Part shown: positions 534 to 63,457 of the stretch, one piece after another | Position numbering within the stretch: position 1 is the stretch's first letter | How the letters are laid out: each line of letters begins with the position of its first letter | NCBI RefSeq assembly: GCF_004010195.1 | Contig: NC_057748.1 | Coordinates: 4,849,374 to 4,913,373 of the forward strand | DNA length: 64,000 nucleotides | Origin: Chiloscyllium plagiosum | Taxonomy: Eukaryota | Direction: 5' to 3' | The notes under the pieces: model-generated | Database searches by the model: none | Seen by the model: the letters and a program-made list of their open reading frames with translations, nothing else | What the model was told of the DNA's origin: nothing | Position numbers and translations under genes: made by a program

Positions 534-2860
<2,327 letters not shown>

Positions 2861-2912
2861 TTAAAAAAAATTTCTTGAAAAGGTTAGACTAGTGAGGAAG
2901 AAACTAGGGTTC

Positions 2913-2944
2913 TATTCCGTCCAAACACTGTTGAAGCAAGAATA
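2913..2944 (-). promoter_or_regulatory. Canonical ferritin-type iron-responsive element in the 5' UTR of ferritin A
   Basis: Minus strand TATTCTTGCTTCAACAGTGTTTGGACGGAATA: CAGUGU loop, 5-bp upper stem UUCAA/UUGGA, UGC/C bulge, lower stem UAUUCU/GGAAUA. Confidence 0.96.
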
Positions 2945-2965
2945 CAACCCGAATTCTGAGCTACA

Positions 2966-23900: not shown

Positions 23901-26900
23901 AGGGGAGTGGGTCCAGTGCAGCCTCATGGTGACGGTGGGGTGAGGGGAGTGGGTCCAGTGCAGCCTCATGGTGACGGTGGGGTGAGGGGAGTGGGTCCAG
24001 TGCAGCCTCATGGTGACGGTGGGGTGAGGGGAGTGGGTCCAGTGCAGCCTCATGGTGACGGTGGGGTGAGGGGAGTGGGTCCAGTGCAGCCTCATGGTGA
24101 CGGTGGGGTGAGGGGAGTGGGTCCAGTGCAGCCTCATGGTGACGGTGGGGTGAGGGGAGTGGGTCCAGTGCAGCCTCATGGTGACGGTGGGGTGAGGGGA
24201 GTGGGTCCAGTGCAGCCTCATGGTGACGGTGGGGTGAGGGGAGTGGGTCCAGTGCAGCCTCATGGTGACGGTGGGGTGAGGGGAGTGGGTCCAGTGCAGC
24301 CTCATGGTGACGGTGGGGTGAGGGGAGTGGGTCCAGTGCAGCCTCATGGTGACGGTGGGGTGAGGGGAGTGGGTCCAGTGCAGCCTCATGGTGACGGTGG
24401 GGTGAGGGGAGTGGGTCCAGTGCAGCCTCATGGTGACGGTGGGGTGAGGGGAGTGGGTCCAGTGCAGCCTCATGGTGACGGTGGGGTGAGGGGAGTGGGT
24501 CCAGTGCAGCCTCATGGTGACGGTGGGGTGAGGGGAGTGGGTCCAGTGCAGCCTCATGGTGACGGTGGGGTGAGGGGAGTGGGTCCAGTGCAGCCTCATG
24601 GTGACGGTGGGGTGAGGGGAGTGGGTCCAGTGCAGCCTCATGGTGACGGTGGGGTGAGGGGAGTGGGTCCAGTGCAGCCTCATGGTGACGGTGGGGTGAG
24701 GGGAGTGGGTCCAGTGCAGCCTCATGGTGACGGTGGGGTGAGGGGAGTGGGTCCAGTGCAGCCTCATGGTGACGGTGGGGTGAGGGGAGTGGGTCCAGTG
24801 CAGCCTCATGGTGACGGTGGGGTGAGGGGAGTGGGTCCAGTGCAGCCTCATGGTGACGGTGGGGTGAGGGGAGTGGGTCCAGTGCAGCCTCATGGTGACG
24901 GTGGGGTGAGGGGAGTGGGTCCAGTGCAGCCTCATGGTGACGGTGGGGTGAGGGGAGTGGGTCCAGTGCAGCCTCATGGTGACGGTGGGGTGAGGGGAGT
25001 GGGTCCAGTGCAGCCTCATGGTGACGGTGGGGTGAGGGGAGTGGGTCCAGTGCAGCCTCATGGTGACGGTGGGGTGAGGGGAGTGGGTCCAGTGCAGCCT
25101 CATGGTGACGGTGGGGTGAGGGGAGTGGGTCCAGTGCAGCCTCATGGTGACGGTGGGGTGAGGGGAGTGGGTCCAGTGCAGCCTCATGGTGACGGTGGGG
25201 TGAGGGGAGTGGGTCCAGTGCAGCCTCATGGTGACGGTGGGGTGAGGGGAGTGGGTCCAGTGCAGCCTCATGGTGACGGTGGGGTGAGGGGAGTGGGTCC
25301 AGTGCAGCCTCATGGTGACGGTGGGGTGAGGGGAGTGGGTCCAGTGCAGCCTCATGGTGACGGTGGGGTGAGGGGAGTGGGTCCAGTGCAGCCTCATGGT
25401 GACGGTGGGGTGAGGGGAGTGGGTCCAGTGCAGCCTCATGGTGACGGTGGGGTGAGGGGAGTGGGTCCAGTGCAGCCTCATGGTGACGGTGGGGTGAGGG
25501 GAGTGGGTCCAGTGCAGCCTCATGGTGACGGTGGGGTGAGGGGAGTGGGTCCAGTGCAGCCTCATGGTGACGGTGGGGTGAGGGGAGTGGGTCCAGTGCA
25601 GCCTCATGGTGACGGTGGGGTGAGGGGAGTGGGTCCAGTGCAGCCTCATGGTGACGGTGGGGTGAGGGGAGTGGGTCCAGTGCAGCCTCATGGTGACGGT
25701 GGGGTGAGGGGAGTGGGTCCAGTGCAGCCTCATGGTGACGGTGGGGTGAGGGGAGTGGGTCCAGTGCAGCCTCATGGTGACGGTGGGGTGAGGGGAGTGG
25801 GTCCAGTGCAGCCTCATGGTGACGGTGGGGTGAGGGGAGTGGGTCCAGTGCAGCCTCATGGTGACGGTGGGGTGAGGGGAGTGGGTCCAGTGCAGCCTCA
25901 TGGTGACGGTGGGGTGAGGGGAGTGGGTCCAGTGCAGCCTCATGGTGACGGTGGGGTGAGGGGAGTGGGTCCAGTGCAGCCTCATGGTGACGGTGGGGTG
26001 AGGGGAGTGGGTCCAGTGCAGCCTCATGGTGACGGTGGGGTGAGGGGAGTGGGTCCAGTGCAGCCTCATGGTGACGGTGGGGTGAGGGGAGTGGGTCCAG
26101 TGCAGCCTCATGGTGACGGTGGGGTGAGGGGAGTGGGTCCAGTGCAGCCTCATGGTGACGGTGGGGTGAGGGGAGTGGGTCCAGTGCAGCCTCATGGTGA
26201 CGGTGGGGTGAGGGGAGTGGGTCCAGTGCAGCCTCATGGTGACGGTGGGGTGAGGGGAGTGGGTCCAGTGCAGCCTCATGGTGACGGTGGGGTGAGGGGA
26301 GTGGGTCCAGTGCAGCCTCATGGTGACGGTGGGGTGAGGGGAGTGGGTCCAGTGCAGCCTCATGGTGACGGTGGGGTGAGGGGAGTGGGTCCAGTGCAGC
26401 CTCATGGTGACGGTGGGGTGAGGGGAGTGGGTCCAGTGCAGCCTCATGGTGACGGTGGGGTGAGGGGAGTGGGTCCAGTGCAGCCTCATGGTGACGGTGG
26501 GGTGAGGGGAGTGGGTCCAGTGCAGCCTCATGGTGACGGTGGGGTGAGGGGAGTGGGTCCAGTGCAGCCTCATGGTGACGGTGGGGTGAGGGGAGTGGGT
26601 CCAGTGCAGCCTCATGGTGACGGTGGGGTGAGGGGAGTGGGTCCAGTGCAGCCTCATGGTGACGGTGGGGTGAGGGGAGTGGGTCCAGTGCAGCCTCATG
26701 GTGACGGTGGGGTGAGGGGAGTGGGTCCAGTGCAGCCTCATGGTGACGGTGGGGTGAGGGGAGTGGGTCCAGTGCAGCCTCATGGTGACGGTGGGGTGAG
26801 GGGAGTGGGTCCAGTGCAGCCTCATGGTGACGGTGGGGTGAGGGGAGTGGGTCCAGTGCAGCCTCATGGTGACGGTGGGGTGAGGGGAGTGGGTCCAGTG

Positions 26901-27655
26901 CAGCCTCATGGTGACGGTGGGGTGAGGGGAGTGGGTCCAGTGCAGCCTCATGGTGACGGTGGGGTGAGGGGAGTGGGTCCAGTGCAGCCTCATGGTGACG
27001 GTGGGGTGAGGGGAGTGGGTCCAGTGCAGCCTCATGGTGACGGTGGGGTGAGGGGAGTGGGTCCAGTGCAGCCTCATGGTGACGGTGGGGTGAGGGGAGT
27101 GGGTCCAGTGCAGCCTCATGGTGACGGTGGGGTGAGGGGAGTGGGTCCAGTGCAGCCTCATGGTGACGGTGGGGTGAGGGGAGTGGGTCCAGTGCAGCCT
27201 CATGGTGACGGTGGGGTGAGGGGAGTGGGTCCAGTGCAGCCTCATGGTGACGGTGGGGTGAGGGGAGTGGGTCCAGTGCAGCCTCATGGTGACGGTGGGG
27301 TGAGGGGAGTGGGTCCAGTGCAGCCTCATGGTGACGGTGGGGTGAGGGGAGTGGGTCCAGTGCAGCCTCATGGTGACGGTGGGGTGAGGGGAGTGGGTCC
27401 AGTGCAGCCTCATGGTGACGGTGGGGTGAGGGGAGTGGGCCCAGCGCGGCCTCATGGTGATGGTGTGGGGAGGGGAGTGGGACCAGCGCAGCCTCATGGT
27501 GACGGTGGGGGAGTGGAGTTTAGGCCCAGTACAGCCTCATGGTGACGGTGGGGTGAGGGGAGTGGGCCCAGCGCGGCCTCATGGTGATGGTGTGGGGAGT
27601 GGAGTTTAGGCCCAGTACAGCCTCATGGTGACAGTGGGGGAGGTGGGTTTGGGCC
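20986..27655. repeat. 42-bp G-rich tandem array, ~154 identical units plus a few diverged units at the right end
   Basis: Unit ATGGTGACGGTGGGGTGAGGGGAGTGGGTCCAGTGCAGCCTC is invariant from 20986 to 27439 and degenerate to about 27655. Confidence 0.99.
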
Positions 27656-28384
27656 TGGCCGGAGACCCTACGGCATTGTCAGCAGAAGCCTTGGCGAGGT
27701 GCACGCGAAACAGCCGCTTGGCAGCAGCAGAGTCAGGTTTGGGCCATCTCAGCGAGATGGAGGTGAGGACTCGGTGGCGAGAGCATCAGTGGAGGTGTGA
27801 TGGCACCGAAGAGTGGGCAACTTTCATTCCAGCCTCAGCCCAGTGAAGGGGACTCGTGCCTGGTCACCAGGCCTGTGGTGGGCACTTAACAAGAAAAACT
27901 GTTAAAGTCGGACACGCTTTCCTCATTTCGTTCCTGTTCAGCTGAGTATCCCATCAGCAGTAGCCTGGCCCCTGAAGTTTTGCAGCTCCCTTTCCCACAA
28001 CATCTCTTCCCTCTCCTCCATCTCTAGTGAGGCAGTCCTTAGAACCAACACCCTCAGGGTAATATCTCCTCAAGCTGCTAAGATTTCGTTTGGTGACACC
28101 CCTGAGGTTTTCAGTCTCTGAGGCGCTACTTAAATGCAGGTCATTGTTGTTCCTTCACTGTCACAGAATCCTGGGATTCCCTCCCTCCTGGGGGTGAACC
28201 GTCAGCCAGTGACCTGCAGTGGCTAAGATGGTGACTACAACCTTCCTAAAGCTGACCCAGCCTCTGACACTCACTAATTGCAGAATAACTCTCCGAACAG
28301 CTTCCCTGCTCCCACCAGTGGGTGGTTAACATCACAATAGACACATGGAGACCACAAACAAAACTTGTTCCAGAGTGAATCTTA

Positions 28385-28755
28385 AACTGATTTGAATTTA
28401 TTGTCACGTGTACCGAGGCACAGTGAAAAGCTTTGTCTTGCAAGCAATACAGGCAGATCACAGAGTTAAGTAGCATAGATAGTAAATAATAGGTAATCAG
28501 TGGCAAAAGCAAAAACTCAGGTACAGGCGAATGTTAAGACTTTGTGAGTCCATTCAGTATTCTAACAACAAGAGGGTAGAAACTGTTTTGAAACCGGCTG
28601 GTGCGTGTGTTCAGACTTCTGTACCTTCTCTCTGATGGTAGATGTTGTGGAAAGCATCGCCAGGGTGGGATGGATCTTTGAAAATGCTGGCGGCCTTTCC
28701 TTGACAGCGGGCCTGGTAGATGGATCCTATAGATGGGAGGTTGGCCTTTGTGATG
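28385..28755 (-). mobile_element. Rex1/Babar-like LINE 3' fragment
   Basis: LPSxRRYRSLNTRTSRFQNSFYP..RILN and an AATAAATTCAAATCA tail. Same family at 8690-8945(+), 35150-35660(-; [16 protein letters not shown]) and 42545-42960(-). Confidence 0.7.
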
Positions 28756-29697
28756 GTAAAAACAATGACTGCAGATGCTGGAAACCAGATTCTGGATTAG
28801 TGGTGCTGGAAGAGCACAGCAATTCAGGCAGCATCCGAGGACAGGCAAAATCGACGTTTCGGGCAAAAGCCCTTCATCAGGAATAAAGGCAGAGAGCCTG
28901 AAGCGTGGAGAGATAAGCTAGAGGAGGGTGGGGGTAGGGATAGAGTAGCATAGAGTACAATAGGTCAGTGGGGAAGGAGATGAAGGTGATAGGTCAGGGA
29001 GGAGAGGGTGGAGTGGATAGGTGGAAAAGGAGCTGGGCAGGAGGTGAGGGAGGTGGTGTGGGCACAGGTTTTACAGTTCCTGCGGTGGCAGGGGAAAGTG
29101 CCAGGATGGGGGGGTGGGTCGTAGGGGGGCGTGGACCTGACCAGGTAGTCACGGAGGGAGCGGTCTTTGCGGAAGGCGGAGAGGGGTGGGGAGGGAAATA
29201 TATCCCTGGTGGTGGGGTCTGTTTGGAGGCGGAGAGGGGTGGGGAGGGAAATATATCCCTGGTGGTGGGGTCTGTTTGGAGGCGGAGAGGGGTGGGGAGG
29301 GAAATATATCCCTGGTGGTGGGGTCTGTTTGGAGGCGGAGAGGGGTGGGGAGGGAAATATATCCCTGGTGGTGGGGTCTGTTTGGAGGCGGAGAGGGGTG
29401 GGGAGGGAAATATATCCCTGGTGGTGGGGTCTGTTTGGAGGCGGAGAGGGGTGGGGAGGGAAATATATCCCTGGTGGTGGGGTCTGTTTGGGGGTGGGGG
29501 GAATGTCGGCGGATGATTTGGTTTATGCGGAGGTTGGTAGGGTGGAAGGTGGGCACCAGGGGCGTTCTGTCCTTGTTGCGGTTGGGGGGGTTGGGTCTGA
29601 GGGCGGAGGTGCGGGATGTGGATGAGATGCGTTGGAGGGCATCTTTAACCACGTGGGAAGGGAAATTGCGGTCTCTAAAGAAGGAGGCCATCTGGTG
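28756..29697 (-). mobile_element. Penelope-like element fragment with terminal hammerhead motif, inserted into the Rex/Babar-like LINE
   Basis: Minus-strand QMASFFRDRNFPSHVV...RTPLVPTFHPTN...TRDIFPSPPLSAFRKDRSLRDYLVRS (RT-to-endonuclease linker). The 3' end carries CTGATGA-AGGGCTTTTGCCC-GAAACGTC (28880-28853). The host LINE GGCCTTTGTGAT resumes at about 29698. Confidence 0.8.
29174..29491. repeat. 53-bp tandem repeat, 6 copies, inside the Penelope-like fragment
   Basis: AAATATATCCCTGG recurs at 29196, 29249, 29302, 29355, 29408 and 29461. Confidence 0.95.
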
Positions 29698-29949
29698 GGC
29701 CTTTGTGATTGCCAGGGCTGAGTTCACCACTCTCTGTAACCATCTCTGATCTTGAATGGTACAATTGCCATAGCAGGTAGTGATCAGTGTAAAATAGGTA
29801 CATGAATAGGAAAGGTTTGGAGGGATATGGGCCAGGAGCAGGCAGGTGGGACTAGTTTAGTTTGGGATTATGTTCGGCATGGACTGGTTGGACCGAAGGG
29901 ACTGTTTCCATGCTGTGCTAGGACTCTCTATGTTGGTTTATACCGTGTA

Positions 29950-30425
29950 TTGACTGATTTAGTGCAGCTCCAATAACATGTAAGAAGGCCGATGGACTTG
30001 GTCAGAGTACAGCATTCCATTTGATTGGCACCACATCCACCGCCCTCATCGCCACTCCCTCCACCACTGACGCTCAGTAGCAGCAGTGTGGACCATCTAC
30101 AAGATGCTCTGCAGAAACTCACCAAAGATCCTCAGACAGCACCTTCCAAACCCACGACCACTTCCACTTAGAAGGACGAGGGCAGCAGATACATGGGAAC
30201 ACCACCTTCAAGATGCCCACCTTCCCCAAGTCCCTCACTATCCAGTCTTGGAAATACATCGCCATTCCTTCAGTGTCTCAGGGTCAAAATCCTGGAATTC
30301 CCTCCCTAAGGGCATTGTGGGTCTACCTACAGCACATGGACTGCCAAGAAGGCAGCTCACCCCCACCTTCTCAAGGGGCAACTAGAGACAGGAAATAAAT
30401 GCTGGGCCCAGTCAGTGACATCACA
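29950..30425 (+). mobile_element. LINE 3' fragment (CR1/L2 group) whose tail matches the second SINE family
   Basis: Ends GGGCAACTAGAGACAGGAAATAAATGCTGGGCC. A longer copy lies at 58870-60070(-) with SAGVPQSSVLG; another fragment at 52905-53070. Confidence 0.7.
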
Positions 30426-30599
30426 TGGGCTGAGAATTAATTGTAAAGCAATCAAACTCGTCTCCATAAAATTTAAAACAGTCTGTTTTTTCTCAAAAAG
30501 AAAGCTGCAAATCTCCACTTCTGAGCAACTGAGGAACTTGTGACAATCAGGGACCTCCGGTGGTAGAAATGGGTTATTGCAGGAGAGCCAGCCTTTAGT

Positions 30600-30912
30600 A
30601 AGTTAAAAATCACACAATGCCAGGTCATAGTCCAACAGGTTTATTTGGAAGCATTAGCTTTCGGAGCGTCGCTCCTTCAGACCTGATGAAGGAGCAGCAC
30701 TCCGAAAGATGGTGCTCCCAAATAAATCTTTTGGACTATAGGCAAAAGTGAGGACCGCAGATGCTGGAAACCAGAGTTTAGATTAGATGGTGCTGGAAAA
30801 GCACAGCAGGTCAGGCAGCATCCGAGGAGCAGGAAAATCGAAGTTTCGGATAACTTGGTGTGTGATTTTTAACTTTGTACACTCCAGCCCAACACCGGCA
30901 CCTCCAAATCAA
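30600..30912. mobile_element. Second Penelope-like terminal-repeat family (inverted arms, hammerhead-like core) with a nested family-A insertion
   Basis: Arms AGTTAAAAATCACAC...TTTCGGAGCGTCGCTCCTTCAG / CTGATGAAGGAGCAGCACTCCGAAAG...GTGTGATTTTTAACT; family A occupies 30741-30849. Confidence 0.7.
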
Positions 30913-31039
30913 GCCTTTAGTAAATTCACCAAAAAACCATTCTGTAACTAGACACATAAACAACTGATGAATAGTCATCTGTTTTTTCACTTTTATTCAA
31001 GATAAGAGATGTCAGTGTTGACTCTTTTTGCTATAGGTT

Positions 31040-31430
31040 TGATATCAAACACTCCCAGGACAGGAACAGCACAGGGCTAGATACAGAGTAAAGCTCTATT
31101 TACACTGTCCCCCCATCAAACACTCACAGGGACAGGGACAGCACAGGGTTGGATACAAAGTAAAGCTCTGTCTACACTGTCCCCCATCAAATACTCCCAG
31201 AGGAGGGACAACACAGGGTTAGATACAGAGTAAAGCTCTCTCTACACTGTCCTCCATCCAATATTCCCTGGACAAGTACAGCATAATGTTAGATACAGAG
31301 TATAGCTTCCTCTTGTCTTTTAAATTGAAAGTAAAGCTACCTTGATACTTTTAAGCTTAAATAAAAGTTCCCTTGACACTGTCCCATCAAACACTCCCAG
31401 GACTAAAACAGTATGGGGTTAGACAGGAGA
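31040..31430 (+). repeat. ~70-bp minisatellite (ATCAAACACTCCCAGGACAGG...GGGTTAGATACAGAGTAAAGCTC...TACACTGTCCCC)
   Basis: About 5 diverged units; the same family occurs in reverse orientation at 36610-36985. Confidence 0.85.
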
Positions 31431-31589
31431 AGTGTTTTTTTAATGTTCGCATTGTTTCACAATTTGTTATCTTTGCATAGCATTTGCAACGGCTCCAAAC
31501 AGAAAGGTGGTGTGCCACAGGAGATAGAGCCCCACCCTGCAAGGAGGTGCTATCTCTCCATTAGGGCGCAGCCTCTTTAACCTTGATCA

Positions 31590-31600
31590 TGCTGAGTCAC
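31590..31600 (-). promoter_or_regulatory. Consensus ARE ~3.15 kb upstream of ferritin B
   Basis: TGCTGAGTCAC, i.e. GTGACTCAGCA on the minus strand. Confidence 0.5.
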
Positions 31601-33639
31601 ACGCTGCTCTTACTGTCCCAACAGGAATGATCCAAAACGATCACTTCATCAGTTTTATGAGCGTTTATTTATGTTTAGTTTAACATCTGGGCCTGTCCTT
31701 GGGAACCATATGGAGACATTGGCAGGAGGAATGCCTTCACCCAGAGGGCAGGGAGTCTGTGGAATTCTCTGCCACAGACAGTGGTTGAGGCAAAAACATT
31801 GAATGATTTTAAGAAGGTGTTAGATATAGTTTTTAGGGCTAAAGGGATCAAAAGGTATGGGGGAGAAAGCAGGAACGGGGGATTAAGTTGGGTGATCAAC
31901 CATGATCACATTGAAGGGGGTGTGCAGGTCCGAAGGGCTGAATGGCCTACTCCCATTCCCATTTTTTATGTTTCCGTCAGGACAAGTCAGGAATGTCAGC
32001 CAGATTATTCATCCACAAGATGAAGGCATCTCTGGCTAGGCATTTATTGCCCATTGCTAATTGCCCAGAGGGCAGTTAAGAGTGAACCCCATTGCTGTGG
32101 GTCTGGAGTCACATGTCGGCCAGTTTCCTTCCATCAAGGGTATTCGTGAACCAGAATGTTTCCAACCATTGGTAATGGATTCCAAATTTTTAGAAAAAAT
32201 TGAATTGAGTTCAAGTTCTACTTTGGTTGGGTTTTGAACCCGGGTCCCCACAGCATTATCTGGGTCTCTGGATTAAAAGTCCAGTGATACTACCACTAGG
32301 CTACCACCTACCCTCAAAGATTGTAGTCTGCATTTTCCTGTATGCAAGAGAAAGTGAGGTCTGCAGATGCTGGAGATCAGAGCTGAAAATGTGTTGCTGG
32401 AAAAGCGCAGCAGGTCAGGCAGCATCCAAGGAGCAGGAGAATCGACGTTTCGGGCATAAGCCCTTCTCCTGTACGCCCCCTGTACCCTCTGACTTTATCC
32501 ACTTCGTCCTTGACTGTGTTGAAAGCTTCCATAGTTCATCATCATAGAATCCCTACTGTGTGGAAGCAGGCCCTATGGCCCAACACTGACTGTCTGAAAT
32601 GTATCCCACACAGACCCATTCACCGACATTTAGCTCTGACTAGTGGTCCTCACCTACTCTTCCCTGGACACTATTGGCAATTTAGCATTCACCTGACCTG
32701 CATATCTTTGGACTGTGGAAGGAAACCTGCATAGTGCGGGGACAATGTGCAAACTCCACACAGATAGTCTGCCTGAGGCTGGAGTCGAACCCAGGCCCCT
32801 GGTGCTGTGAGGCAGCAGTGCTAACCACTGAGCCACTGTGCCTTCGCAACAGAAGAGAATTTCACAGACTGCCGAGTGTCTGAATGAAGAGCATTTCTCC
32901 TCTGTCTCCATCTGAGAGAGGAATGTCAGTTGTAATTGAACTACAGCTCACCAAAATTAAATGGGTAATTTTAAGAAAGGATTCTGTGACTGACAAGGCC
33001 AAAGTTTGTTGCTCATGAGCTGATTGGGGTTCTCTAGGCCATTTCTGAGAGCATTTAAGAATCAACTACACCGCTGTGGGTCTGGAGTCATGTGTAGGCC
33101 ACACCAGGTAAGGATGCCAGATTTCTTCCCAAAAGGCCTTTAGTGAACCAGATGGGTTTTCTCCAAACAGTGGATTTATTGACATCAGTAGATTCTAAAT
33201 TCTGTAGTAGTAGGACTTGAACCTGCGTCCTCAGAGCATTACCTGGGTTTCTGGATCAATAGCCCAATAATAATATCACTAGGCCATCAGATTGAATTTA
33301 TATGGTGCCTGTAATAGAGGAACGCATTCCAAGGTCCTTCAAAGAAGCATTACCAAACAACATGTGACAGGAGGAGGTGGGTGTTCAGACAGATCACTGC
33401 ACGATTGGTGTTAAAGGGTGTCTTAAATCGGGAAGTTGAGATGGAGGGAAAGGTTGAGGCTGTGGGGGGGGGTGGGGGGCGCGGGTGGGATCGAGGTTGC
33501 AGAGATGCACTGAAGGGATTCTAAAATATCAGTTTCAAAATGGAGGTGTTGCTCAACTGGGAGTTGGTGTAAGCTGTTGGACATGGTATTGGTTATTTGA
33601 AAAGGTACAACATATTGGCAAAAGTGAGAGTGCCACTCT

Positions 33640-33895
33640 GGGTTACACCAGCCCACGCCATGGCATTGCCAGGGGCCCATTCCGGGTTACACCAGCCCAC
33701 ACCATGGCATTGCCAGGGGCCCATTCCAAGCAGCACCAGCCTGCGCCATGGCATTGCCAGGGGCCCATTCCGGGTTACACCAGCCCACACCATGGCATTG
33801 CCAGGGGCCCACTCCGGGTTACACCAGCCCACACCATGGCATTGTCAGTGGCCCATTCCGAGCTGCACCAGCCTGCGCCATGGCATTGCCAGGGC
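33640..33895. repeat. 44-bp GC-rich VNTR, ~6 copies
   Basis: CCATGGCATTG(C/T)CAG recurs every 44 bp from 33658; two unit variants. Confidence 0.9.
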
Positions 33896-34632
33896 GGAAG
33901 CAAAACTCCTGCTCCAGGCTTCATAGGTCACCCGACCGTCTCTGTAGCCATGTTGCCCCGAAATGCCTCGATGCTGAAGAGCTCTCTTCATCAGGTACTT
34001 TGGAGTAAAGAAGGGGAAAGAGAATGGAAGGAAGAAAAGCTGACAAAGAGGATGAGCCCAGGCACTGGGGGCCTGCACACCTCCAACCCCGCCGCTGCCA
34101 ACTTGAAAGATAAACAGGAACGTATCCTCTACCTCCAAAAAGAACACCTTTAATTATTTGGGGTGGGGGTGGGGACAGTGAGATCTTGGCAGCTATTTCT
34201 CCAGGGCAACGCATCGGCCAATCAGAGCCAACTTTCTGAATAATCAGCTTTCTTTCATCCTGCAGTATAAATTGTGGTGATGGTTTGAAATTTGGCATTC
34301 TTGCATGTGTGTCCTGATGACAGCCATCATGTGAACTGGGATGGACAAACTCATAAGTCACATGACAGCAGGTCATAGTTCAACAGGGGTTTATTAGAAA
34401 TCACAAGCTTTTGGAGCGACGGTCTGAAAACCTGCGTTTTCAAATAAACCCGTTGGACTGTGACCTGGCGTTGTGTGACTTCTGAGTTTGTCCTGATGAA
34501 ACCACCTGTGGCCTGTCTGCTTTGTCAGGAAGGGCTTTACGTGAGTGTAACAGTCCGTGTCTGCAGCCAGCCAGCCAGCTGGGTTGGTTTCTGAATCAAT
34601 CGTCCAGCAGACCTCCTGCACCCTCCCCCTTG

Positions 34633-34690
34633 TGGGGCGTGGGCGGTGCCTGATAACCCAAGTGTGTCTCTGAGCTCCCCGCCCCCGTCA
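34633..34690 (+). promoter_or_regulatory. Putative ferritin B proximal promoter (GC boxes, GATAA)
   Basis: GGGGCGTGGGCGG, TGATAA (34651-34656) and CCCCGCCCC just upstream of exon 1. Confidence 0.55.
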
Positions 34691-34701
34691 TTGAGCCAGG
34701 C

Positions 34702-34728
34702 TTCCTGCAACGACTGCTTGGAGTGAAC
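34702..34728 (+). promoter_or_regulatory. Degenerate, probably non-functional IRE relic in the ferritin B leader
   Basis: TTCCTGC---AACGACTGCTTGGAGTGAAC aligns with the vertebrate H-ferritin IRE TTCCTGCTTCAAC-AGTGCTTGGACGGAAC but has no CAGUG loop and a deleted upper stem. Confidence 0.6.
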
Positions 34729-34751
34729 AGGCAGAGCCCATGGTCTGAGCA

Positions 34752-34853
34752 ATGCAGGCTCAGGTGAGAGAGAACTTCCACCCAGACAGCGAGACTGCCA
34801 TCAACAAACTCATCAGCATCAACTACTACACCTCTTACGTCTACCTAGCCATG
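34752..34853 (+). CDS. Ferritin B coding exon 1
   Basis: ATG at 34752; 34 codons collinear with gene A exon 1; donor ATG|GTAAAA. Confidence 0.92.
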
Positions 34854-37800
34854 GTAAAATCCTGCCTTTTTATCAACATCGTACATGATACAGTGGGAAC
34901 TAAATTGGCCTTTTAAAATGCTACACCCTTGCAAAGAATTTCTTGTGTCTGAAAAAGATACCTTTTTTAACCTCTCGGTGATTATATTGTGTCAAATATT
35001 GCGTGTTGTTTTGCCCTCTGGGATCAGATGGCACCATCTCAGAATCAGGGGTCACCTATAAGATGAGGAATAGTTTCCTCTCTCTGTGGGGAGTGAAACT
35101 GTGGAACGCTTTCCCACAGAGGGCTCTTGAGGCTGGGATGTTAAGTACATTTGATTTGATTTGATTTGATTTATTGTGGTCACATGTACCTAAGTACAGT
35201 GAAAAGGTTTTGTTTTGCGAGCAGTACAGGGATCATAGCAAACAAGGACATGCAGATCACAGGGTTCTTAGACAGAGTGAGGTGCTTAGACACAGGAGAC
35301 GCACAAAGCAAGATCAACATTAGATTTGAAATTTGAGAGCTCCATCTTAATTCTAATACCGGGGGGGTAGAAGCTGTTCTTGAACCTGTCTGTGCATGTG
35401 TTCAAAGTTCTGTACATTCTGCCTGACGGAAGGGGGTGGAAGAGGCTATCACCCGGGGTGGGAGGGGTCTTCGATGATGGTGGCGGCCTTTCCGAGGCAG
35501 TGAGCAGACTGTCCGTAATGAAAGGTTGCCTGCCGTGATGGTTTGGGCTGGGCACCCCACCTTCTGTAGTTTCTTACGGTCCTGAGCAGAGCAGTTGCTG
35601 TTCCAGGCCGTCATGCACCCGGACAGTTTGCTGTCAATGGTCCATCTGTAAAAGCTGGTGATGTTTAATCAGTAAAGGGATCGAGGGTATTGGGGAAAAG
35701 GCAGGAAAGTGAGGTTGAGAGTTAGCAGATCACCCCTGATCCTCTTGAAAGGAGGAGCAGACTGGATGGGTTTCTGCTCCTATATAGGCAAAAGTGAGGA
35801 CTAGGTAAAAACAATGACTGCAGATGCTGGAAACCAGATTCTGGATTAGAGTGGTGCTGGAGAAGCACAGCAGGTCAGGCAGCATCCGAGGAGCAGGAGA
35901 ATCAACGTTTTGAGCAAAAGTCCTTCACCAGCTGATGAAGAGCTTTTGCTCGAAACGTCGATTCTCCTGCTCCTTGATTGCTACCTGACCTGCTGTGCTT
36001 TTCCAGCACCACACTCCAGACTTCAGCTCCTATATACTGTGGTCTTTCAGGAGAATATCGCTTTCTTTATGCAGTGTTCTCAAGGTAAGCAGGGATGAGG
36101 CCAAGAAAGAACTTGCATTTTCATTGCGCTTTCCATTATTGCAGGTTGTTGCAAAGTGCTGCACAGCCAGGAGTAGTATTTAAGAGGCACAATGTGGTTG
36201 GAATTGATTCATGTGTTCCAAAGTCAAACAAAGTCGGAAATTTGTCTTAACGCACGGTGTATTGAAGTGGGTGAACTTAACTCCAGGACTCAGTAAACAG
36301 ACCAGTCGAGATGTCAGCCATGGCAAAGATGGGAATCAGACTTTTAACCATGAGGACATCACAAGCCCATTTGATCCAAACATCAGCCAATCTCACAGCA
36401 GACAGGCACCACCTCACTATTTTGACCAGACCCTTGCCTCCCAATCCATCCATGAGGGGTCCCTATATCCACCTGTTGCTTCTGCGGCCAAGGTCAATGA
36501 ATTGATTGAGTGTTCCCCCCTTCATTCCCACTGAGTGTTTGACAGCACCGCCTACTTGGTACACACCCGCATCATACCCATCAGGGCAGCCCGCCATAGA
36601 CCTCGACAAAACCTAACCCCATGCTGGAAGTGTTGGATGGGAATATTATAGAGGGAGCTTCACTCTGTATCTAATCTTGAGCTGGGAGGGTTTGACGGGG
36701 ACAGTATAGAGGGAGCTTGACTTGGTATCTAACCCCATGCTGTCCCTGTCCTGGGAGTATTGGCTGTGGACAGTGTAGAGGGAGCTTTACTCTGTATCTA
36801 ATCTTGTGCTGTCCCTGTCCATGTTGTGTTGGATGTGGACAGTGTAGAGGGATCTTTAGTCTGTATCTACCCCCATGATGTCCCTGTCCTGGGAGTGTTG
36901 GATGGGGACAGTGCAGAGGGAGCCTTACTCTGTTTTTAACCCTGTGTTGCCCCTGTTCTGGGAGTGTTTGATGGGGACAGTGTAGTGTGAGGATGTGTAT
37001 GTTTATTAAGTGTGCGATGGTGTGTTTCCACACGCGTGACTGTATGTGAGTGTGAGTACAGTTTATGAATAGGAACCAGGCTTGATCTTGCCCAGTTAGC
37101 TTCCGGTCAAACTGCCTGCCACATGATCCCAGCTCGAGAAGGGACAGGCTCTCGAAATCTCACTTTCTCTCAGGGATTATGGCAGTCCAGAACCCAGAGC
37201 AGAGTTCTGCAAACCATTCGGATTTGTAAAAGACATTGTAAAATGATTTATTCCTCCAACCAACCCTCCTCAAACGTTGGGAAACATTAAAAGAGTGGAG
37301 AATTAGCCACAAATGCATGCAGCAAATTGTTTTAAAAATGGAAATTGCTGGAAAAGCTCTGCCGGTCTGGCAGTAATTGCAGAGAGAAATCAAGACCTAA
37401 TGTCTCAGGTCTTTCCTGAAAACTGAGGTTATTGAGTCACAGAGTCATACAGCACAGAAATATACCCTATGGTCCAACTCATTCAGACCGACCACATTTC
37501 CCAAAACAAACTAATCCCACTTGTCTGCGTTTGGCCTATATCCCTCTAAACCTTTCCTATCCATGTATCTATCCAAACGTCTTTTAACTATTGTAACTGG
37601 ACCTGCACCTTCCACCTCCTCTGGCAGTTCATTCCACCTACGGGTCACTGGACCCGAAACATTAATTCTGATTACTCTCCACAGATGCTGCCAGACCTGT
37701 TGAGCTATTCCAGCAGTTTTTGTTTCTGATTTACAACCTCCTCAGTTTTTATTCAGCAATTGATTTTTGTTATCTAACGTCTGGCCCAGGGGATTGTCAC

Positions 37801-40800
37801 TTGACAGATGCAGATACAGCTCAGCAAAGAGTGGACCATGATTAATTAAACTCATTTTGATGGCAAATAGTGCATTTCTTTCAACCTCTGCTTCTGAGAA
37901 AGTGAAAGACAAATTAGCCATAACCTGCTGTCTTATTAGAGAGCCACAACTCAGAGCAATTTTAACCTGAGGCAATGGGAGAGGTTGAGAAGGACGGCCT
38001 TTCATAGTAACCTCAGCCAATGTGTCACTCACCAGCCATCCAGCCAACTGAACTAACCAACCAGATTTAAGAAAGCACCATTCACTTAAGAGCATAGAGT
38101 CATGGAGATGTACAGCATGGAAACAGACCCTTCGGTCCAACTTGTCCATGCCGACCAGATATCCCAACCCAATCTAGTCCCACCTGCCAGCACCCAGCCC
38201 ATATTCCTCTAAACCCTTGTTATTCATATACCCATCCAAATGCCTCTTAAATGTTGCAATTGTACCAGACTCCACCACATCCTCTGGCAGCTCATTCCAT
38301 ACACGTACTACCCTCTGTGTGAAAAAGAAGCCCCTTAGGTCTCTTTCATATCTTTCCCCTCTCACCCTAAACCCATGCCCTTTAATTCTGGACTCCACGA
38401 CCCCAGGGAAAAGACTTTGCCGATTTACCCTATCCATGTTTGCGCAAAAAAACCCTTTAAAATCTTCTGGAAATGGTGTGTTTTTCTTTGTGATTAACCT
38501 TGTTCAGCATTGCAGCTCTTCGGGTACTTTGAACTAAGCGGCTTTTCAAGTTTGCTGATCCCCTCCCCTCCCCCACCACCATCAATTTGTTGAAAGCATT
38601 AAACTGTGTGCTTTTCTCTTCCAAAAAAGTCTTTCTATTTCGAACGGGACGACGTTGCACTGGAGAACTTTGCAAAGTACTTCCACAAACTATCGGAACT
38701 GCTGCGTGAAAACGCCGAGGAGCTGACCAACTACCAGAAGCTAAGGGGAGGTCGTATCCGGCTGGAGGAGATCGAGGTGAGCTGGATGCTTCTGATCACT
38801 GTCATTTCTTTCCCCAGTGAGTGTGAAGTGCTTCCTGTAAGCTCTTGCCCAGTGTACATTCATGTAAGAAGTACGTTTAAGAAATATTTCGATGTGCACT
38901 TGTGACGCCATAGCCCAAGTGCTGGAAAATGGGATTCTATGATTCTAACCCCCTTTATTTCCTTTTAGTCCTCTACCCTTTCATGCCTGAAGGTGTTGTG
39001 TGACAATGTGAGGGAGCTGGATTAACATCAATGGAGATAGCATCATTAACACAGGGAGCTGAGTGGGAGGGTTTTACTGAGTGACAGTGTGAGGGAGCTG
39101 GATTATTATCACTAATATCACTAATTTGGAAGCACCTGTTGGATGTAATCTGGTGTTGTGTGATTTTTAACTTTGTCCATCCCTGTGCAACACCATCATC
39201 TCCACACCATGACTACATTACCAGCGACTGCATTTGGAAAAGAAATCCGCCAATTTACCTGGCCTGGTTAATCTGTGACTCCAGTCCCACAGCCTAGAGA
39301 GCCATTGAGTTCAAGGGCAATTAGGGATAGGTATCAAATACCAGCCTTGCCAGCAGCACCCACAATCCCCATGTGGGATTTCCTTGGGCGCTGCAGTTCA
39401 CATTGTCTACCACTAGATAGCAGTAGACTGTTGATTTTTGCAATGTTATCCTTCCCAAAGCTGCAGCCGGACCAGGGTTCTTGTGATGCAGTGGTAGTGC
39501 CCCTACCTCTGAGACAGGTGGCCTGGCTTCAAGTCTCACTTCCTCTTGAGGACTGGTTATAACATTGCTGAACAGGTTGATTAGAAAACTTTAAGACAAA
39601 TACACTTGAGAGCTATTGAAGGTTATGAAGCTATTGAAGAGTGGGTACTATGGCAGTGTAGCAGAGACAGTGGTACATTTTCTGCACAGCAAGATCCCAT
39701 CAGGTGCAATGAGCCAACCAGCAGATCATCTGTGTGAGGTGTTGCTAGAGCGATAAGCAGCAACAGAAACCTCTTTGCATTTGCATAATGCCCTTCACAA
39801 CCCAAACTCGTAAAGTGGTTTCTGGAAGTGTAGTCAGTTGCTGTTGTGTGGAAAAAGTTGCAGTAACCAACTTGTTGACAGTCAGTTCCCACAAGCAGCA
39901 ACGTGGTAATGACTAGGTAAACATGAGATCATCCAACTCGTCCGTGCCCTAACTTACACCATGTTCTGAACACCCATCGCCCCTGTGCACGCTGACCTAG
40001 TTCACAATCCCTGTAGTTTCAAAATTCTCAAGCTTTGTTTTCAAAGCCCTCCCCATCTCCGTAATCTGCTCCAGCCTCACAACTTTCCAAGATGGCTGCC
40101 TCCCCTCATTCTGACAATCTTGAGCATCCCTGTTGTGAATCACTGACAAATCCTGGTGGCTATGTCGTTAGCTCTAACCTGCAGAATTCCCTTCCTGAAC
40201 CTCTCCACCACTTTATCTCAATTCCCACCTTGAAACTGCTCCTTAAAGCCTATCTCGGTGACCAAACCTGAACCAATATCTCCTGAAGAGGCTGAGTATC
40301 ATGTATTGTTTTACAACGCTTCTGTGAATCCTCTTGGGAGATTTGTTACATGAACAACGCTGTATAAATACAACTTGCAGTTATAATCTGTTACAAACAT
40401 AGAAACAAGGAACAGGAGTAGGCCATTCAGTCCCTCAATCCTGCTGTGCCATTCAGTACAGTCGTGGCTGATCATCCAACTTAATCCCCTGTTCCTGCTT
40501 TCTCCCCCATACCCTTTGATCCCTTTATCCCGAAGAACTATATCTAATGCCTTCTTGAAAATATTCAATGTTTTGGCCTCAACCACTGTCTGTGGCAGAG
40601 AATTCCCCAGGCTCCCCACTCTCTGGGTGAAGACATTTCTCCTAATCTCAGTCTGAAATGACCCACTCCATATCCTTAGACCATGAACCCCCCCTTGGTT
40701 CTGGACTCTCCTGGTCATCACAAACATCCTTCTTGTTTACCCTGTCTAGTTCTGTTAGACTGTTACAGGTTTTGGGGGAGGCAATAGCCTAGTGGTGTTA

Positions 40801-43800
40801 TCGCTGGACTGTTAATCCAAAAACCTGATAATGTTCCAGGGACTTGGGTTCGAATCTCACCACAGCGGATGCCGGAAGTTGAATTCAATAAACATTCTGG
40901 AATAAAGACTCTAATGATGACCATGAATCCATTGTCAAGGAAAACCTCATCTGGTTTAGTAATGTCCTTGAGGGAAGGAAATGGCTATCCTTACCTAGTC
41001 TGGTCTACGTGTTACTCCAGACCCACCACAATGGTGGCTTACACTAACTGCCCTCTGGGCAAGTAGGGATGGACATTCCATCAGCCTGCATCTTGTGATG
41101 AATATTAACAAAATCTGACATGGTGGGTTACTCAGGTAGTTGCACTGACACCTTCTAATGGCTTGACCAAGCTGCCTCGATTCTAAAATTCTTGCTCTTG
41201 TTGCGCTCCCCACTCTCCAATCCCACCTCCCATCCTCTTTCTTCTTCAGCCCTGGGAGATCATCCTAATGAATGGTAGAGCAGGTTTGAGGGACCAAATG
41301 GCCCATTCCTGCCCCTATTACTTACGGCCTTTTGGCTGTAACCCGCCAAATGTAACCTCATTCCCCATCAGACGTTTAGCCTTTTACACATTCCCGCTTT
41401 CCATCGCTTTCCCTCTGGTGAATCGCTCCTACAGCTGCCTGAGGACCTAAACTCTGGAATTCCCTCCTTAACCCCCACCAGCCCCCTTTCTCTCTCTGTC
41501 TCCCTTCACCTTAGAGACACTTCTTAAAACCTACAGCTTTGACTAAGCTTCTGATCATCTGCCCTAATACCACTCCATATGTGTTGAGTGATGTCTGGAG
41601 CCTACTCCAGTGATGCACCATGGGAAATTTAATGACAACAACAGGCCCTACACCATCGCACGTCACTGTCACTGCCAGTGTTCACTGCATCTGGAAGGCT
41701 GGAAGGTGTCACAATGTTGATCTATTTACAAGGTTACTATGCCCTTTTCCAGGGAGGGGGTAACTGGCCAGGCTCCAACTTGGCTGGGTTTGAAAGGTTT
41801 ATTGAGGCCCTTTTTGTTTACCCCTAACAGATAATGCCTCCAGCCTAGCGCTTTTAAGCCTTAAAAATAACCAGTCTAATCAAAGGGGAGTGGCCAGCTT
41901 GCTGTGCAGCTAGCCTTCATTTCGATTTGAGTTTTTGATTCAGTTCAGCAGCAGCGTGTATGAAGAAAGGCTGCAGGGGCAAGTCCAGCCGGTTCCGCAC
42001 TCTCTCTAACTTCAAGCCTGTAAGCCCTGGTTGGTTTCATTTTTACTCTTTGTGCTAAGGGGTCTCTTTATGGAGATTGTTGCAAGTATTTTCGGAACAG
42101 CATCATTAAGTCGGGATAGTCTGTCAGGTTTTTGGACAGGAAACGTTATCCGGTATTCTATTTTCTGTTCTTTGTATTTTATTCTGTAATTTTGGAAATA
42201 AGTTCTGTTTGTTTAAAACTTGGTTGTCTGACCAGCTAATTCACTCCAGGAATATCCACTGTACGCTAACCTAAAACAAATAGTGAATTTATGGTCTGGG
42301 CTACCTGCTTAAAAATGATTTGAGGGGTTGGGCCTGGTCCATAACAAAGGGAAGAGTTAATCCCCAAATTTGATTCTGCCCCCTGTGCAAATTATGGAGT
42401 TGGTGTGAAATTGCAAGGCGTCAAAGGAATTTCCATCCAGCGTGTGTGAAATGGACAGAATTCACAGCTTCCTCTCCACCATCCCCACTTTACTTACTGA
42501 GAGAGTCACACCGACAAGAGATTAGAGTTTTGCTGCTGATTTGATATATTGTTGCCACGTGCACTGAGATGTAGTGAAAGGTGTTACTGCGCATGCTACC
42601 ACAGTAGATCATGCCGTACGGAGTGTATCAGGATCGCAGAACAGAGTGCAGTATATAATGTTACAGCCACAGAGAAGGGGCACAGAGAGAAATCCGAATT
42701 AACATTTGAGAAGTCGATTCAAAAGTCTGATAACAGTGAGGGAGAAGCTGCTCTTGAAAAGGTTTGTACATGTATTTAAACTTTTAGATCTCTTGCCCAA
42801 GGGAGAGGATGGAAGGGAGTATAACCGGGGTGGGAGTGGTCTTTGATGATGTTGGTTATTTTCCCGAGGCAGCGGGAGGTGTAGATGGAGTCAATGGATG
42901 GAAGGCTGGTTTGCGTGATGGACTGGGCTATGTTCACAACTCTCTGTCATGTCTTGTGGTCATGGAGTCACACAGATGTACAGCACAGAAATACACATTT
43001 CAATCCAACCTCTCCATTGCCCACCAGATGTCCTCAATTAATCTAGTCCCATTTGCCAGCATTTGGCCCATGTCCCTCTAAACCCTTCCTATCCGTATAC
43101 CCATCCAGATGCCTTCTAAATGCTGTGATTGTACCAGCCTCTACCACTTCCTCTGCCAGTTCATTCCATACACGTACCAACCTCTGTGAAAAAATAGTTG
43201 CCCCTTAGGTCCATTTTAAATCTTTCTCCTCTCACCCTAAACCTATGCCCTCCAGTTCTGGACTTCCCCCACCCCAGGGAAAAGATGTTGTCTATTTATC
43301 CTATCCATGTCCCTCATGATTTTGTAAACATCTATAAGGTCACCCCTCAGCCTCTGATGCTCCAGGGAAAACAGCCCCAGCCTATTCACCCTCGGGAAGG
43401 GCAGTTGCCAAACCACACGGTGGTGCCTCCAGGCTTCTGTAGAGAGAGACAGTGAGAGAGAGAGAGATCTCATTTTGACTCTTTTCCTGGCACAGAAACC
43501 AGACAGGCAAGAATGGACCAATGGGTTGGAGGCGATTCAGTGTGCACTTGATCTGCAGAAAACTATCAACAAATCTCTCTTGGAACTGCATCGCCTGGCT
43601 TCCGATAAACATGACCCTCAGGTAGCTCGCGTTTTGTTCCTTATGGGCTGTTGCCCCCGCCACCGGGCACATTGTTATTGATGTATAGAACAGGGGTGGC
43701 ACGATGGTTCAGTGGTTAGCACTGTTGCTTCACAGCACCAGGGACCCGGGTTCAATTCCACCCTTGGGTGACTGTGTGGAGTTTGCACATTCTCCCCATA

Positions 43801-44746
43801 TCTGCATGGGCTTCCTCCCACAATCCAAAGATATATCAGTTAGATGGTCATTGGATAAACATATGGGTGAAAATTGAACAGCGTAGGTTAAATAGGCTTC
43901 AGACTGGTTCCACAGGTCGTGCAACATCAAGGGCCAAAGGGCTGCATTGTCCTATGGATTGGCCATGTTAAATTGCCCCATAAGTGGGTTAGCCATGGAA
44001 GATGCAGGGTAATAGGGATAGGGTAGGTGGCGTGGTTCTGAGTGGGATTCTCTCTGGAGGATGGGCATGGACTCAATGGCCTCCTTCCACACTTTTGAAT
44101 TATTCTAACTGCCCTCATCACCCAGTGAATGTGGGGTTTATGGGCACGTCCATCTCATGACACCCTTTGTCATGAACAGCAATATTTCACTTGCTTCCCT
44201 GGTGCCAAATGGATTCCATTCCTGATTGACTCTGAACTCCTTGAGTGCACTTTAGCTCTTTCTTGAGAAACTGCGCGTGCTGTAAATCAGAAACAAAAAC
44301 AGAAATTGCTGGAAAAGCTCAGCAGGTCGAGCAGCATCCATGGAGAGAAATCAGAATTAACGTTTCAGGGTCAAGTGACCCTCAGAACAGAATTCTTAAC
44401 TCTTTCTCGCTCTCTCTCCAGGGATGCTACCAGACTTGCTGAGTTCCTCCAGCACATGACATTTCTGTTTCAGGTTTCCAACATCACAGATCTTCGGTTC
44501 TGTGACTGGTAGTGACCGATCTCATGTCATCAGGTATAATAACTGACCGGAGTCACTGAGTTATTTCACATTTGGTTTATTTTATTGTTCTTTCAGATGT
44601 GCAATTACCTCGAGTCCAATTTCTTGAACAGCAGCGTAGAAACGCTGAAGACGTTGGGAGATCACATCACAAGTCTCAAGAAGTTGACCGTGGGCAAGCT
44701 GAGTGGAATGGGCGAATACCTCTTCAACAAGCACACTCTTGGATAG
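34752..44746 (+). CDS. Ferritin gene B, lower/light (L)-type subunit lacking a ferroxidase centre, 174 aa, 4 coding exons
   Basis: Exons 34752-34853, 38630-38776, 43496-43621, 44597-44746; GT-AG, phase 0; exons 1-3 are the same length as in gene A. Translation: [174 protein letters not shown]. No stops or frameshifts. LQK, [18 protein letters not shown] and YLFNKHTLG* match my recollection of the frog lower subunit. Confidence 0.93.
35787..36025. mobile_element. Palindromic Penelope-like family-A insertion in ferritin B intron 1
   Basis: Flanking duplication GCTCCTATATA (35776-35786, 36026-36036); core CTGATGA-AGAGCTTTTGCTC-GAAACGTC at 35932-35959. Confidence 0.8.
38093..38437 (-). mobile_element. 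CR1/HER-like LINE 3' end in ferritin B intron 1
   Basis: [11 protein letters not shown]...[14 protein letters not shown] plus tail. Similar fragments at 40395-40770(-) and 42960-43390(-) in intron 2. Confidence 0.88.
38630..38776 (+). CDS. Ferritin B exon 2
   Basis: Acceptor cttttctcttccaaaaaAG; FERDDVAL...RGGRI; donor GAG|GTGAGC. Confidence 0.93.
41760..42346. mobile_element. Possible solo LTR or other interspersed repeat in ferritin B intron 2
   Basis: ~590-bp block with imperfect inverted ends GTAACTGGCCAGG ... CCTGGTCCATAACA; no clear target-site duplication. Confidence 0.3.
43496..43621 (+). CDS. Ferritin B exon 3
   Basis: Acceptor ttttcctggcacAG; KPDRQEW...DKHDPQ; donor CAG|GTAGCT. 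Confidence 0.94.
44597..44746 (+). CDS. Ferritin B exon 4
   Basis: Acceptor ttgttctttcAG; LGDHITSL...[10 protein letters not shown]; TAG at 44744-44746. Confidence 0.94.
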   Translation: MCNYLESNFLNSSVETLKTLGDHITSLKKLTVGKLSGMGEYLFNKHTLG

Positions 44747-63272: not shown

Positions 63273-63329
63273 ATGGCTCACTCTCACCAGGGACTGCTCC
63301 TCTTGCTGGCTCTGCTCTTCCCCAGCTGG
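63273..63329 (+). CDS. Probable first coding exon (signal peptide) of an unidentified secreted or membrane protein; gene continues beyond the window
   Basis: Kozak GCTGCCATGG; MAHSHQGLLLLLALLFPSW (hydrophobic leader); consensus donor TGG|GTAAGT; upstream region is non-repetitive with scattered CpGs. Confidence 0.6.
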
Positions 63330-63457
63330 GTAAGTAAAGATCTCTCTCACACACCTCACAGCCTCGCGGTTTTAACACGGACTGAAATGCTTTCAGGGCG
63401 AGATGGGTCTGGTGGAGTTTGTAGATTTTGCAAAGCACTGCTCTGGGGCGGGGGGGG

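What the first reader, a model, noticed from the sequence alone, without database searches (positions are those of the whole stretch)
34702..34728. Fossil IRE: ferritin B appears to have escaped IRP/iron translational control
Seen: 23 nt upstream of the ATG is TTCCTGCAACGACTGCTTGGAGTGAAC. It keeps the blocks TTCCTGC, AAC, TGCTTGGA and GAAC of a ferritin IRE but lacks the TTC of the upper stem, and the CAGUG loop has become CGACUG. It lies 50 nt downstream of a GATAA motif; in gene A the intact IRE starts 46 nt downstream of GATAA, so the positions correspond. Known: IRP1/2 binding needs the CAGUGN loop, the 5-bp upper stem and the bulged C. Inference: the two linked subunits are uncoupled, with A iron-gated and B not, so cage composition would shift with iron status.
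Basis: partly seen in the sequence, partly recalled or inferred. Interest (0 to 1): 0.75.

Follow-up and report, generated by a model that had tools for sequence, protein, structure and literature searches.

The report
Shark ferritin subunit lacking iron switch
A bamboo-shark gene for an ancient, catalytically dead ferritin subunit has only a decayed trace of the RNA hairpin that normally lets iron switch ferritin synthesis on, and the matching ray gene also seems to lack it, so this subunit is probably made regardless of iron while its neighbouring partner gene stays iron-controlled.

Summary
The motif is present as described (34702-34728) and lies in the spliced mRNA of gene B. It is not a working iron-responsive element (IRE): no Rfam IRE hit even at E<=10, 1.6 bits against 46.3 for gene A, no IRE geometry with any loop. 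That it is an IRE remnant is likely but modestly supported: top 2-5 of 2154 window tiles against A's IRE, while the reverse-complement control also scores 10-27 of 2154. Gene B is the shark member of the ferritin 'lower subunit' clade (rays, chimaera, coelacanth, amphibian L; 100/99), separate from mammalian-FTL-like rows; it has lost five of six ferroxidase ligands. A manta-ray orthologue's annotated N-terminal extension is its translated promoter and leader, colinear with B's, and cannot encode a canonical IRE there, so the loss probably predates the shark-ray split. IRE-less ferritins are known (FTMT). Iron-dependent cage composition is untested. Amphibian and coelacanth leaders could not be checked.

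The parts
34702..34728 (+). Degenerate IRE-like motif at the 5' end of the gene B mRNA; no IRE loop or stem geometry
34701..34751 (+). Transcribed 5' leader of gene B (at least 51 nt); colinear without gaps with the ray orthologue's leader
   Evidence: spliced contigs begin at 34701, 34706, 34712; fixed-register match 18 minimal differences of 51, equalled by 7 of 17704 positions
34630..34656 (+). GC-box and GATAA promoter block, resembling the block before gene A's IRE and kept in the ray orthologue
   Evidence: A versus B promoter alignment equalled by 93 of 5000 tiles; ray peptide alignment; promoter function inferred
34714..34734 (+). Alternative 7-bp hairpin with a 7-nt loop formed from the 3' half of the motif and downstream bases; no C bulge
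   Evidence: z -2.4 on 29 nt; not formed in the 34701-34760 fold
34740..34748 (+). Two-codon upstream ORF (Met-Val-stop), in frame, ending 3 nt before the main ATG; not kept in the ray
34752..34853 (+). Gene B coding exon 1
   Evidence: spliced to exon 2 in 3 of 3 contigs laid
38630..38776 (+). Gene B exon 2
43496..43621 (+). Gene B exon 3
44597..44746 (+). Gene B coding exon 4 with stop; AATAAA at 44895
   Evidence: four exons give P0001 exactly
2912..2947 (-). Intact canonical IRE of gene A
   Evidence: Rfam IRE_I 42 bits; canonical core
534..2824 (-). Gene A, four exons (2824-2723, 2361-2215, 2068-1943, 692-534), 177 aa, all ferroxidase ligands present; head-to-head with B, about 31.7 kb apart

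Best explanation
Gene B is the shark orthologue of the amphibian ferritin lower (L) subunit, an old duplicate of an IRE-bearing ferritin gene that has stayed linked to a catalytic partner (gene A). Its cap-proximal leader holds the decayed remains of the ancestral IRE. Without the loop and upper stem, IRP1/2 cannot bind, so B mRNA is translated regardless of cytosolic iron and B output is set by transcription (perhaps damped by the two-codon upstream frame), while A is iron-gated. The loss is old, before sharks and rays split, and went along with loss of the ferroxidase site; the remnant is drifting, not conserved. Shown: sequence, transcription, absence of IRE geometry, clade, ligand loss. 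Inferred: homology of the motif, no IRP binding, age of loss.
For: No IRE by Rfam, by a local covariance model (1.6 bits, E=1.8 in 111 nt) or by a loop-agnostic scan using the SIREs pairing rules of PMC2896125 (two cores in 34650-34853, both overlapping the start codon or coding exon, neither canonical). No canonical core in 27600-34760. 3 of 4 runs laid gave a spliced contig starting at 34701-34712 with no upstream exon attached. Similarity to IREs at the expected place. Clade of 17 rows 100/99; best solved-structure match is frog L ferritin 1rci. Ligands E24, E58, E59, H62, E104, Q138 of A read N, L, L, N, Q, S in B. Mobula birostris extension aligns to 34598-34736 at 38 bits (0 of 300 tiles, 0 of 150 shuffles) and allows no canonical IRE in residues 28-61, whereas 12 of 15 other extensions tested show the translated IRE.
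Against: Homology statistics are modest: not in the whole-window list of the sequence model; reverse-complement control 10-27 of 2154; local promoter-plus-leader alignment equalled by 222 of 5000 tiles. The ray peptide shows no IRE trace. The age rests on one annotated ray isoform read through a back-translation; the sawshark extension P0007 did not align (27 of 300 tiles). The three contigs carry no differences from the window, so they give no comparative signal; the cap site itself is not mapped. The covariance model was trained on A and two identical fish IREs, so A's 46.3 bits is partly by construction.
Confidence: 0.68

Rival explanations
1. B lacks an IRE, but the motif is not a fossil: the original leader was lost or replaced early in the lower-subunit lineage and the resemblance is chance plus the reader's choice of gaps. 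The functional outcome (no IRP control) is the same.
For: Better chance matches elsewhere in the window; reverse-complement control scores high; ray leader has no IRE likeness; the duplication predates the split of cartilaginous and bony fishes, a long time for a dead element to stay readable.
Against: Position was fixed beforehand (cap-proximal leader of a ferritin paralogue, 50 versus 48 nt from GATAA); 2-5 of 2154 tiles and 2-8 of 3000 shuffles; E=0.025; the neighbouring promoter block also resembles A's (93 of 5000).
Confidence: 0.17
2. The leader keeps weak, non-canonical IRP binding, for example through the 7-bp hairpin at 34714-34734 whose loop differs from the canonical loop at its first base, giving damped rather than absent iron control.
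For: The hairpin is the minimum-energy fold of 34695-34735, 34685-34755 and 34710-34738; PMC2896125 states that IRP-binding motifs are more variable than the canon.
Against: Loop is 7 nt, no C bulge, fails the SIREs geometry with any loop; not formed when the leader starts at 34701; leader differs from the ray's at no fewer than 10 of 30 motif positions.
Confidence: 0.07
3. B transcripts in other tissues start from another first exon or promoter that carries an IRE, or mostly start downstream of the motif, making the motif irrelevant.
For: A possible AG acceptor lies at 34698-34699 after a pyrimidine-rich stretch; two of three contigs start inside the motif; the one raw-read run laid gave nothing.
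Against: No IRE anywhere else in the window at gathering score and no canonical core in the 7 kb upstream; the deepest contig (depth 209) ends at 34701 in library adapter, not in exon sequence; promoter block conserved in the ray.
Confidence: 0.08

Closest known systems
Ferritin 5' IRE (Rfam RF00037 IRE_I) with IRP1/IRP2
   Same: Cap-proximal place in a ferritin leader; about 20 of 28 bases shared with gene A's IRE.
   Different: No CAGWGH loop, no five-pair upper stem under a C bulge; below every threshold tested.
Amphibian ferritin lower (L) subunit (bullfrog L, PDB 1rci/1rcd)
   Same: Same clade (100/99), 59% identity, shared loss of ferroxidase ligands at positions 24, 104 and 138; relatives share contigs with catalytic ferritins.
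   Different: B has also lost the acidic residues at 54, 58, 59 that frog L keeps. The IRE state of amphibian L mRNA was not found in the papers searched and could not be tested.
Mitochondrial ferritin FTMT
   Same: A vertebrate ferritin without IRE, outside IRP control (PMC13010531, PMC7760355, passages).
   Different: FTMT is an intronless, H-derived, ferroxidase-active mitochondrial protein; B is an intron-containing, ferroxidase-dead subunit with no targeting peptide.
Mammalian FTL and hyperferritinaemia-cataract IRE mutations
   Same: Ferroxidase-dead subunit; IRE damage gives iron-independent L synthesis in patients (PMC11719527, passages), which is what B's leader would do as a fixed state.
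   Different: FTL has an intact IRE and FTL-like rows group with tetrapod M-type proteins, not with B (PMC4117605 reports teleost M as orthologous to mammalian L).

Membership tests
Functional IRE (RF00037 / SIREs) | Six-base apical loop CAGWGH | tested here: not met
   No canonical core in B's promoter, leader or exon 1; A and L004 controls found
Functional IRE (RF00037 / SIREs) | Five-pair upper stem under an unpaired C (one mismatch or one 3' bulge allowed), any loop | tested here: not met
   Two loop-agnostic cores at 34744 and 34763 only, none over the motif; the 16 SELEX loops were not listed in the text read, hence the loop-agnostic scan
Functional IRE (RF00037 / SIREs) | Covariance-model score at or near the gathering score of 34 bits | tested here: not met
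   No IRE_I match at E<=10 in 1501 or 101 bases; 1.6 bits with local model R1
Functional IRE (RF00037 / SIREs) | Located in the 5' UTR near the cap | tested here: met
   Spliced contig from 34701 covers the motif; cap site itself not mapped
Functional IRE (RF00037 / SIREs) | Binds IRP1/2 and confers iron-dependent translation | not testable with these tools
   Needs gel shift and reporter
IRE-derived remnant (homology) | Sequence likeness to ferritin IREs beyond chance at the homologous place | tested here: met
   2-5 of 2154 tiles, 2-8 of 3000 shuffles, E=0.025; weakened by reverse-complement control
IRE-derived remnant (homology) | Orthologues show the same remnant or an intact IRE at that place | tested here: inconclusive
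   One ray leader is colinear but shows no IRE trace; no orthologous DNA obtained (one search returned no lower-subunit locus among 4)
Ferritin lower (L) subunit of amphibian type | One clade with amphibian L | tested here: met
   100/99 without the long lungfish row; 54/99 with it; 100/97
Ferritin lower (L) subunit of amphibian type | Ferroxidase ligands lost | tested here: met
   N24, L58, L59, N62, Q104, S138 in gene A numbering; Y31 kept
Ferritin lower (L) subunit of amphibian type | Four-exon ferritin gene with ferritin domain | tested here: met
   PF00210 101.9 bits
Ferritin lower (L) subunit of amphibian type | Acidic cavity (nucleation) residues | tested here: not met
   K54, L58, L59 in B against E, E, E in bullfrog L; E61 kept
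Ferritin lower (L) subunit of amphibian type | Assembles into 24-mer cages, alone or with a catalytic subunit | not tested
   No complex prediction run; a pass would reflect likeness to solved ferritins
Mammalian FTL orthologue | Groups with FTL | tested here: not met
   Three unnamed FTL-like rows (recognised by a recalled motif) group with reptile/bird and amphibian M-type rows (95/86), outside B's clade; long branches

The most novel reading that the evidence does not exclude
A whole gnathostome ferritin lineage (the lower subunit of sharks, rays, chimaeras, coelacanth, amphibians and probably some bony fish), distinct from mammalian FTL, escaped IRP control long ago and is kept next to an iron-gated catalytic partner, so that iron sets cage stoichiometry by translating only one of two linked genes, or the lower subunit serves an iron-independent role. 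The classical frog L subunit would then not be iron-regulated at translation either.
Probability: 0.2. Interest if true: 0.62.

Novelty: new variant of a known kind. Interest (0 to 1): 0.4.

Why it matters
Cytosolic vertebrate ferritin mRNAs are generally taken to carry an IRE, with H and L induced together. A conserved, expressed, intron-containing subunit gene whose IRE has decayed gives a natural, fixed counterpart of the human IRE mutations that cause constitutive L-ferritin, and a simple paired test (A leader versus B leader from one locus). It also points to an under-described ferritin clade, usually mislabelled 'heavy chain-like', whose function in cartilaginous fish is open. It does not change the IRE/IRP mechanism itself, and IRE-less ferritins are already known.

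Tried and rejected
No whole genome was held, so other ferritin copies and IRP genes of this genome were not examined. The single-cell raw-read run X19 laid 0 reads from about 2% of the run: no test of start site or strand. No listed holder was on record as RNA; RNA status of X1, X3, X8 rests on their exon1-exon2 joints. Only 4 of 24 listed runs were laid. A degenerate exon-1 pattern in metagenome contigs gave 4 loci, none of the lower-subunit clade; two carried fish-type H-chain IREs (53.3 bits) and served as controls. MAFFT alignment of the two whole leaders was uninformative. The sawshark extension P0007 did not align to B's leader. A profile search of 50%-identity representatives gave no further lower-subunit protein with a leader-derived extension among 147 new rows. 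4 of 21 extended proteins (P0067, P0118, P0126, P0157) were left out of the peptide-IRE test. miRNA-family matches at 34344-34494 are far below gathering scores and reflect an inverted repeat. The motif at 17811 is a chance 10-mer (8 matches, 7.35 expected). The upstream ATG as a conserved regulator was rejected because the ray has Val and Cys at the Met and stop positions. Nine paper searches listed nothing on the IRE state of shark or amphibian lower-subunit genes; Piccinelli and Samuelsson 2007 (PMC1894933, cited in PMC4117605) is not held and might cover it. Supplements of bioRxiv 10.1101/2020.05.01.071498 (zebrafish IRE gene lists) could not be seen and may bear on the bony-fish member; those of PMC7992352 did not help. 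Earlier scan findings held nothing relevant.

Full report
Setting. The window holds two four-exon ferritin genes head to head. Gene A is on the minus strand (2824-534) and gene B on the plus strand (34752-44746). [quoted passage not shown] A and B share 94 of 173 aligned residues.

Observation. The string is at 34702-34728, 23 nt before the ATG and 50 nt after a GATAA. Gene A's IRE is the only Rfam match at gathering score in the 64 kb (42 bits); its comparable spacing from GATAA is 48 nt. Three of four runs laid on 34500-34900 gave one contig each, beginning at 34701 (depth 209, followed by library adapter), 34706 and 34712, all joined from 34853 to the first bases of exon 2 and none joined to an upstream exon. 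So B is expressed and spliced and the motif lies at the 5' end of its mRNA, where a repressing IRE would sit (recalled knowledge). The fourth run laid no reads. The cap site is not mapped.

Is it a working IRE? No by every sequence test. Rfam IRE_I does not appear at E<=10 in 1501 or 101 bases around the motif. A covariance model built from A's IRE and two identical fish H-chain IREs (L002, L004) gives 1.6 bits against 46.3 for A, which was in the training set. A scan written from the SIREs rules (PMC2896125, first of three parts read), accepting any loop, finds the canonical core in A and L004, two non-canonical cores at 34744 and 34763, and nothing over the motif; no canonical core lies in 27600-34760. 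The leader folds no better than shuffles (z between -1.3 and 0.3 for five stretches); a short 7-bp hairpin at 34714-34734 (z -2.4 on 29 nt) has a 7-nt loop and no C bulge.

Is it a fossil IRE? Probably. Against A's 28-nt core the 51-nt leader is equalled by 2-5 of 2154 window tiles and 2-8 of 3000 shuffles over four scoring schemes, against the fish IRE by 0-17 of 2154. A sequence-only model puts its single match in the 111-nt promoter-leader stretch on the motif (3.0 bits, E=0.025). The promoter block before it also resembles A's (93 of 5000 tiles). Against this: the motif is absent from that model's 8 whole-window matches, stronger chance matches exist, the reverse complement of the IRE also matches well (10-27 of 2154), and a local alignment of promoter plus leader is equalled by 222 of 5000 tiles. 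The exact lesion is ambiguous: the leader is two bases shorter across the hairpin, and the gap can be put in the stem or the loop.

What gene B is. In a 41-row tree B falls in a 17-row clade with shark and ray lower subunits, a Callorhinchus protein, coelacanth L and frog and salamander L (100/99; the long lungfish row was left out, with it support was 54/99). Two unnamed proteins join this clade and three FTL-like rows do not; that P0179 is a bony-fish protein and that the three rows are mammalian FTL is my recall, not a call result. The best solved-structure match is frog L ferritin. At the six ferroxidase positions named in PMC4117605 (passages) plus Y31, A is intact, while B reads N24, L58, L59, N62, Q104, S138; that is all six named ligands changed if Gln for Glu104 is counted, five without a carboxylate, histidine or amide equivalent. 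B also lacks the acidic residue at 54.

How old is the loss? No orthologous DNA could be fetched, but an annotated Mobula birostris isoform (P0011) has a 61-residue N-terminal extension that is a translation of its promoter and leader. Back-translated, it aligns to 34598-34736 at 38 bits (0 of 300 tiles, 0 of 150 shuffled peptides), and its last 17 codons match 34701-34751 without a gap in the register fixed by the ATG (18 minimal differences of 51; 7 of 17704 positions as good). No choice of codons gives a canonical IRE in residues 28-61; the one permissive hit lies at residue 20, upstream of the GATAA. The same test recovers the translated IRE in 12 of 15 other extensions tested. So the ray leader has the same length as B's across the motif and no IRE: the loss most simply predates the shark-ray split. 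The ray leader differs at 10 or more of 30 motif positions and shows no IRE likeness of its own, so the remnant is not conserved. This rests on one automated gene model.

Mechanism. Most likely (0.68): B arose by duplication of an IRE-bearing ferritin gene, lost its ferroxidase site, and its IRE decayed; IRPs do not bind, so B is translated independent of iron while A is repressed when iron is low. A two-codon upstream frame at 34740 may lower B's output but is not kept in the ray. Rivals: chance resemblance with an earlier loss (0.17), another start or first exon (0.08), weak non-canonical binding (0.07).

Comparison with what is known. IRE-less vertebrate ferritin is known: FTMT (PMC13010531 and PMC7760355, passages). 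IRE damage causing constitutive L-ferritin is known from patients (PMC11719527, passages). All five salmon H and M isoforms carry IREs (PMC4117605). Nine searches (listings only, apart from the papers named) showed nothing on shark or amphibian lower-subunit leaders; the library lacks most subscription papers, including the main survey of IRE evolution and the original bullfrog papers, so absence from print is not established.

Verdict. Observation confirmed; escape from IRP control well supported by sequence, fossil origin moderately supported, cage consequence untested. A new variant of a known kind; interest 0.4.

Noticed in passing
window 34343-34493: Imperfect inverted repeat (77% over 153 nt) about 200 nt upstream of gene B's promoter, with partial copies at 30621-30674 and 39135-39186; looks like a small inverted-repeat transposon and draws sub-threshold miRNA-family matches.
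   Followed up: partly
window 20986-27643: Tandem array of a 42-bp unit, 158.5 copies, 99% matches, between the two ferritin genes; gives stop-free frames of about 2200 codons. Near-perfect homogeneity may be real or an assembly effect.
   Followed up: no
window 63274-63330 (+): Short ATG-initiated exon encoding a signal-peptide-like stretch followed by a GT donor; probably the first exon of the next gene.
   Followed up: no
window 38630-38776 (gene B exon 2): Bamboo and whale shark B have Leu-Leu at the positions of the two B-helix ferroxidase glutamates, more extreme than in other sharks or frog L; the helix varies widely among cartilaginous fish.
   Followed up: partly
proteins P0179, P0255: Two unnamed proteins fall in the lower-subunit clade with long branches, suggesting the lineage extends beyond cartilaginous fish, coelacanth and amphibians.
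   Followed up: partly
window 50390-51980 and 53703-53999: Reverse-transcriptase fragments of a LINE-type element (PF00078 for 50390-51046).
   Followed up: no
L001 and L003, upstream of position 501: Two invertebrate-type ferritin genes with a TATA box close upstream and no Rfam IRE match at gathering score.
   Followed up: no
proteins P0075-P0079, P0086, P0092, P0123: Sharks carry a further expanded, catalytic ferritin group (clusters of up to 54 members in Chiloscyllium punctatum), often annotated as fused tandem models.
   Followed up: no
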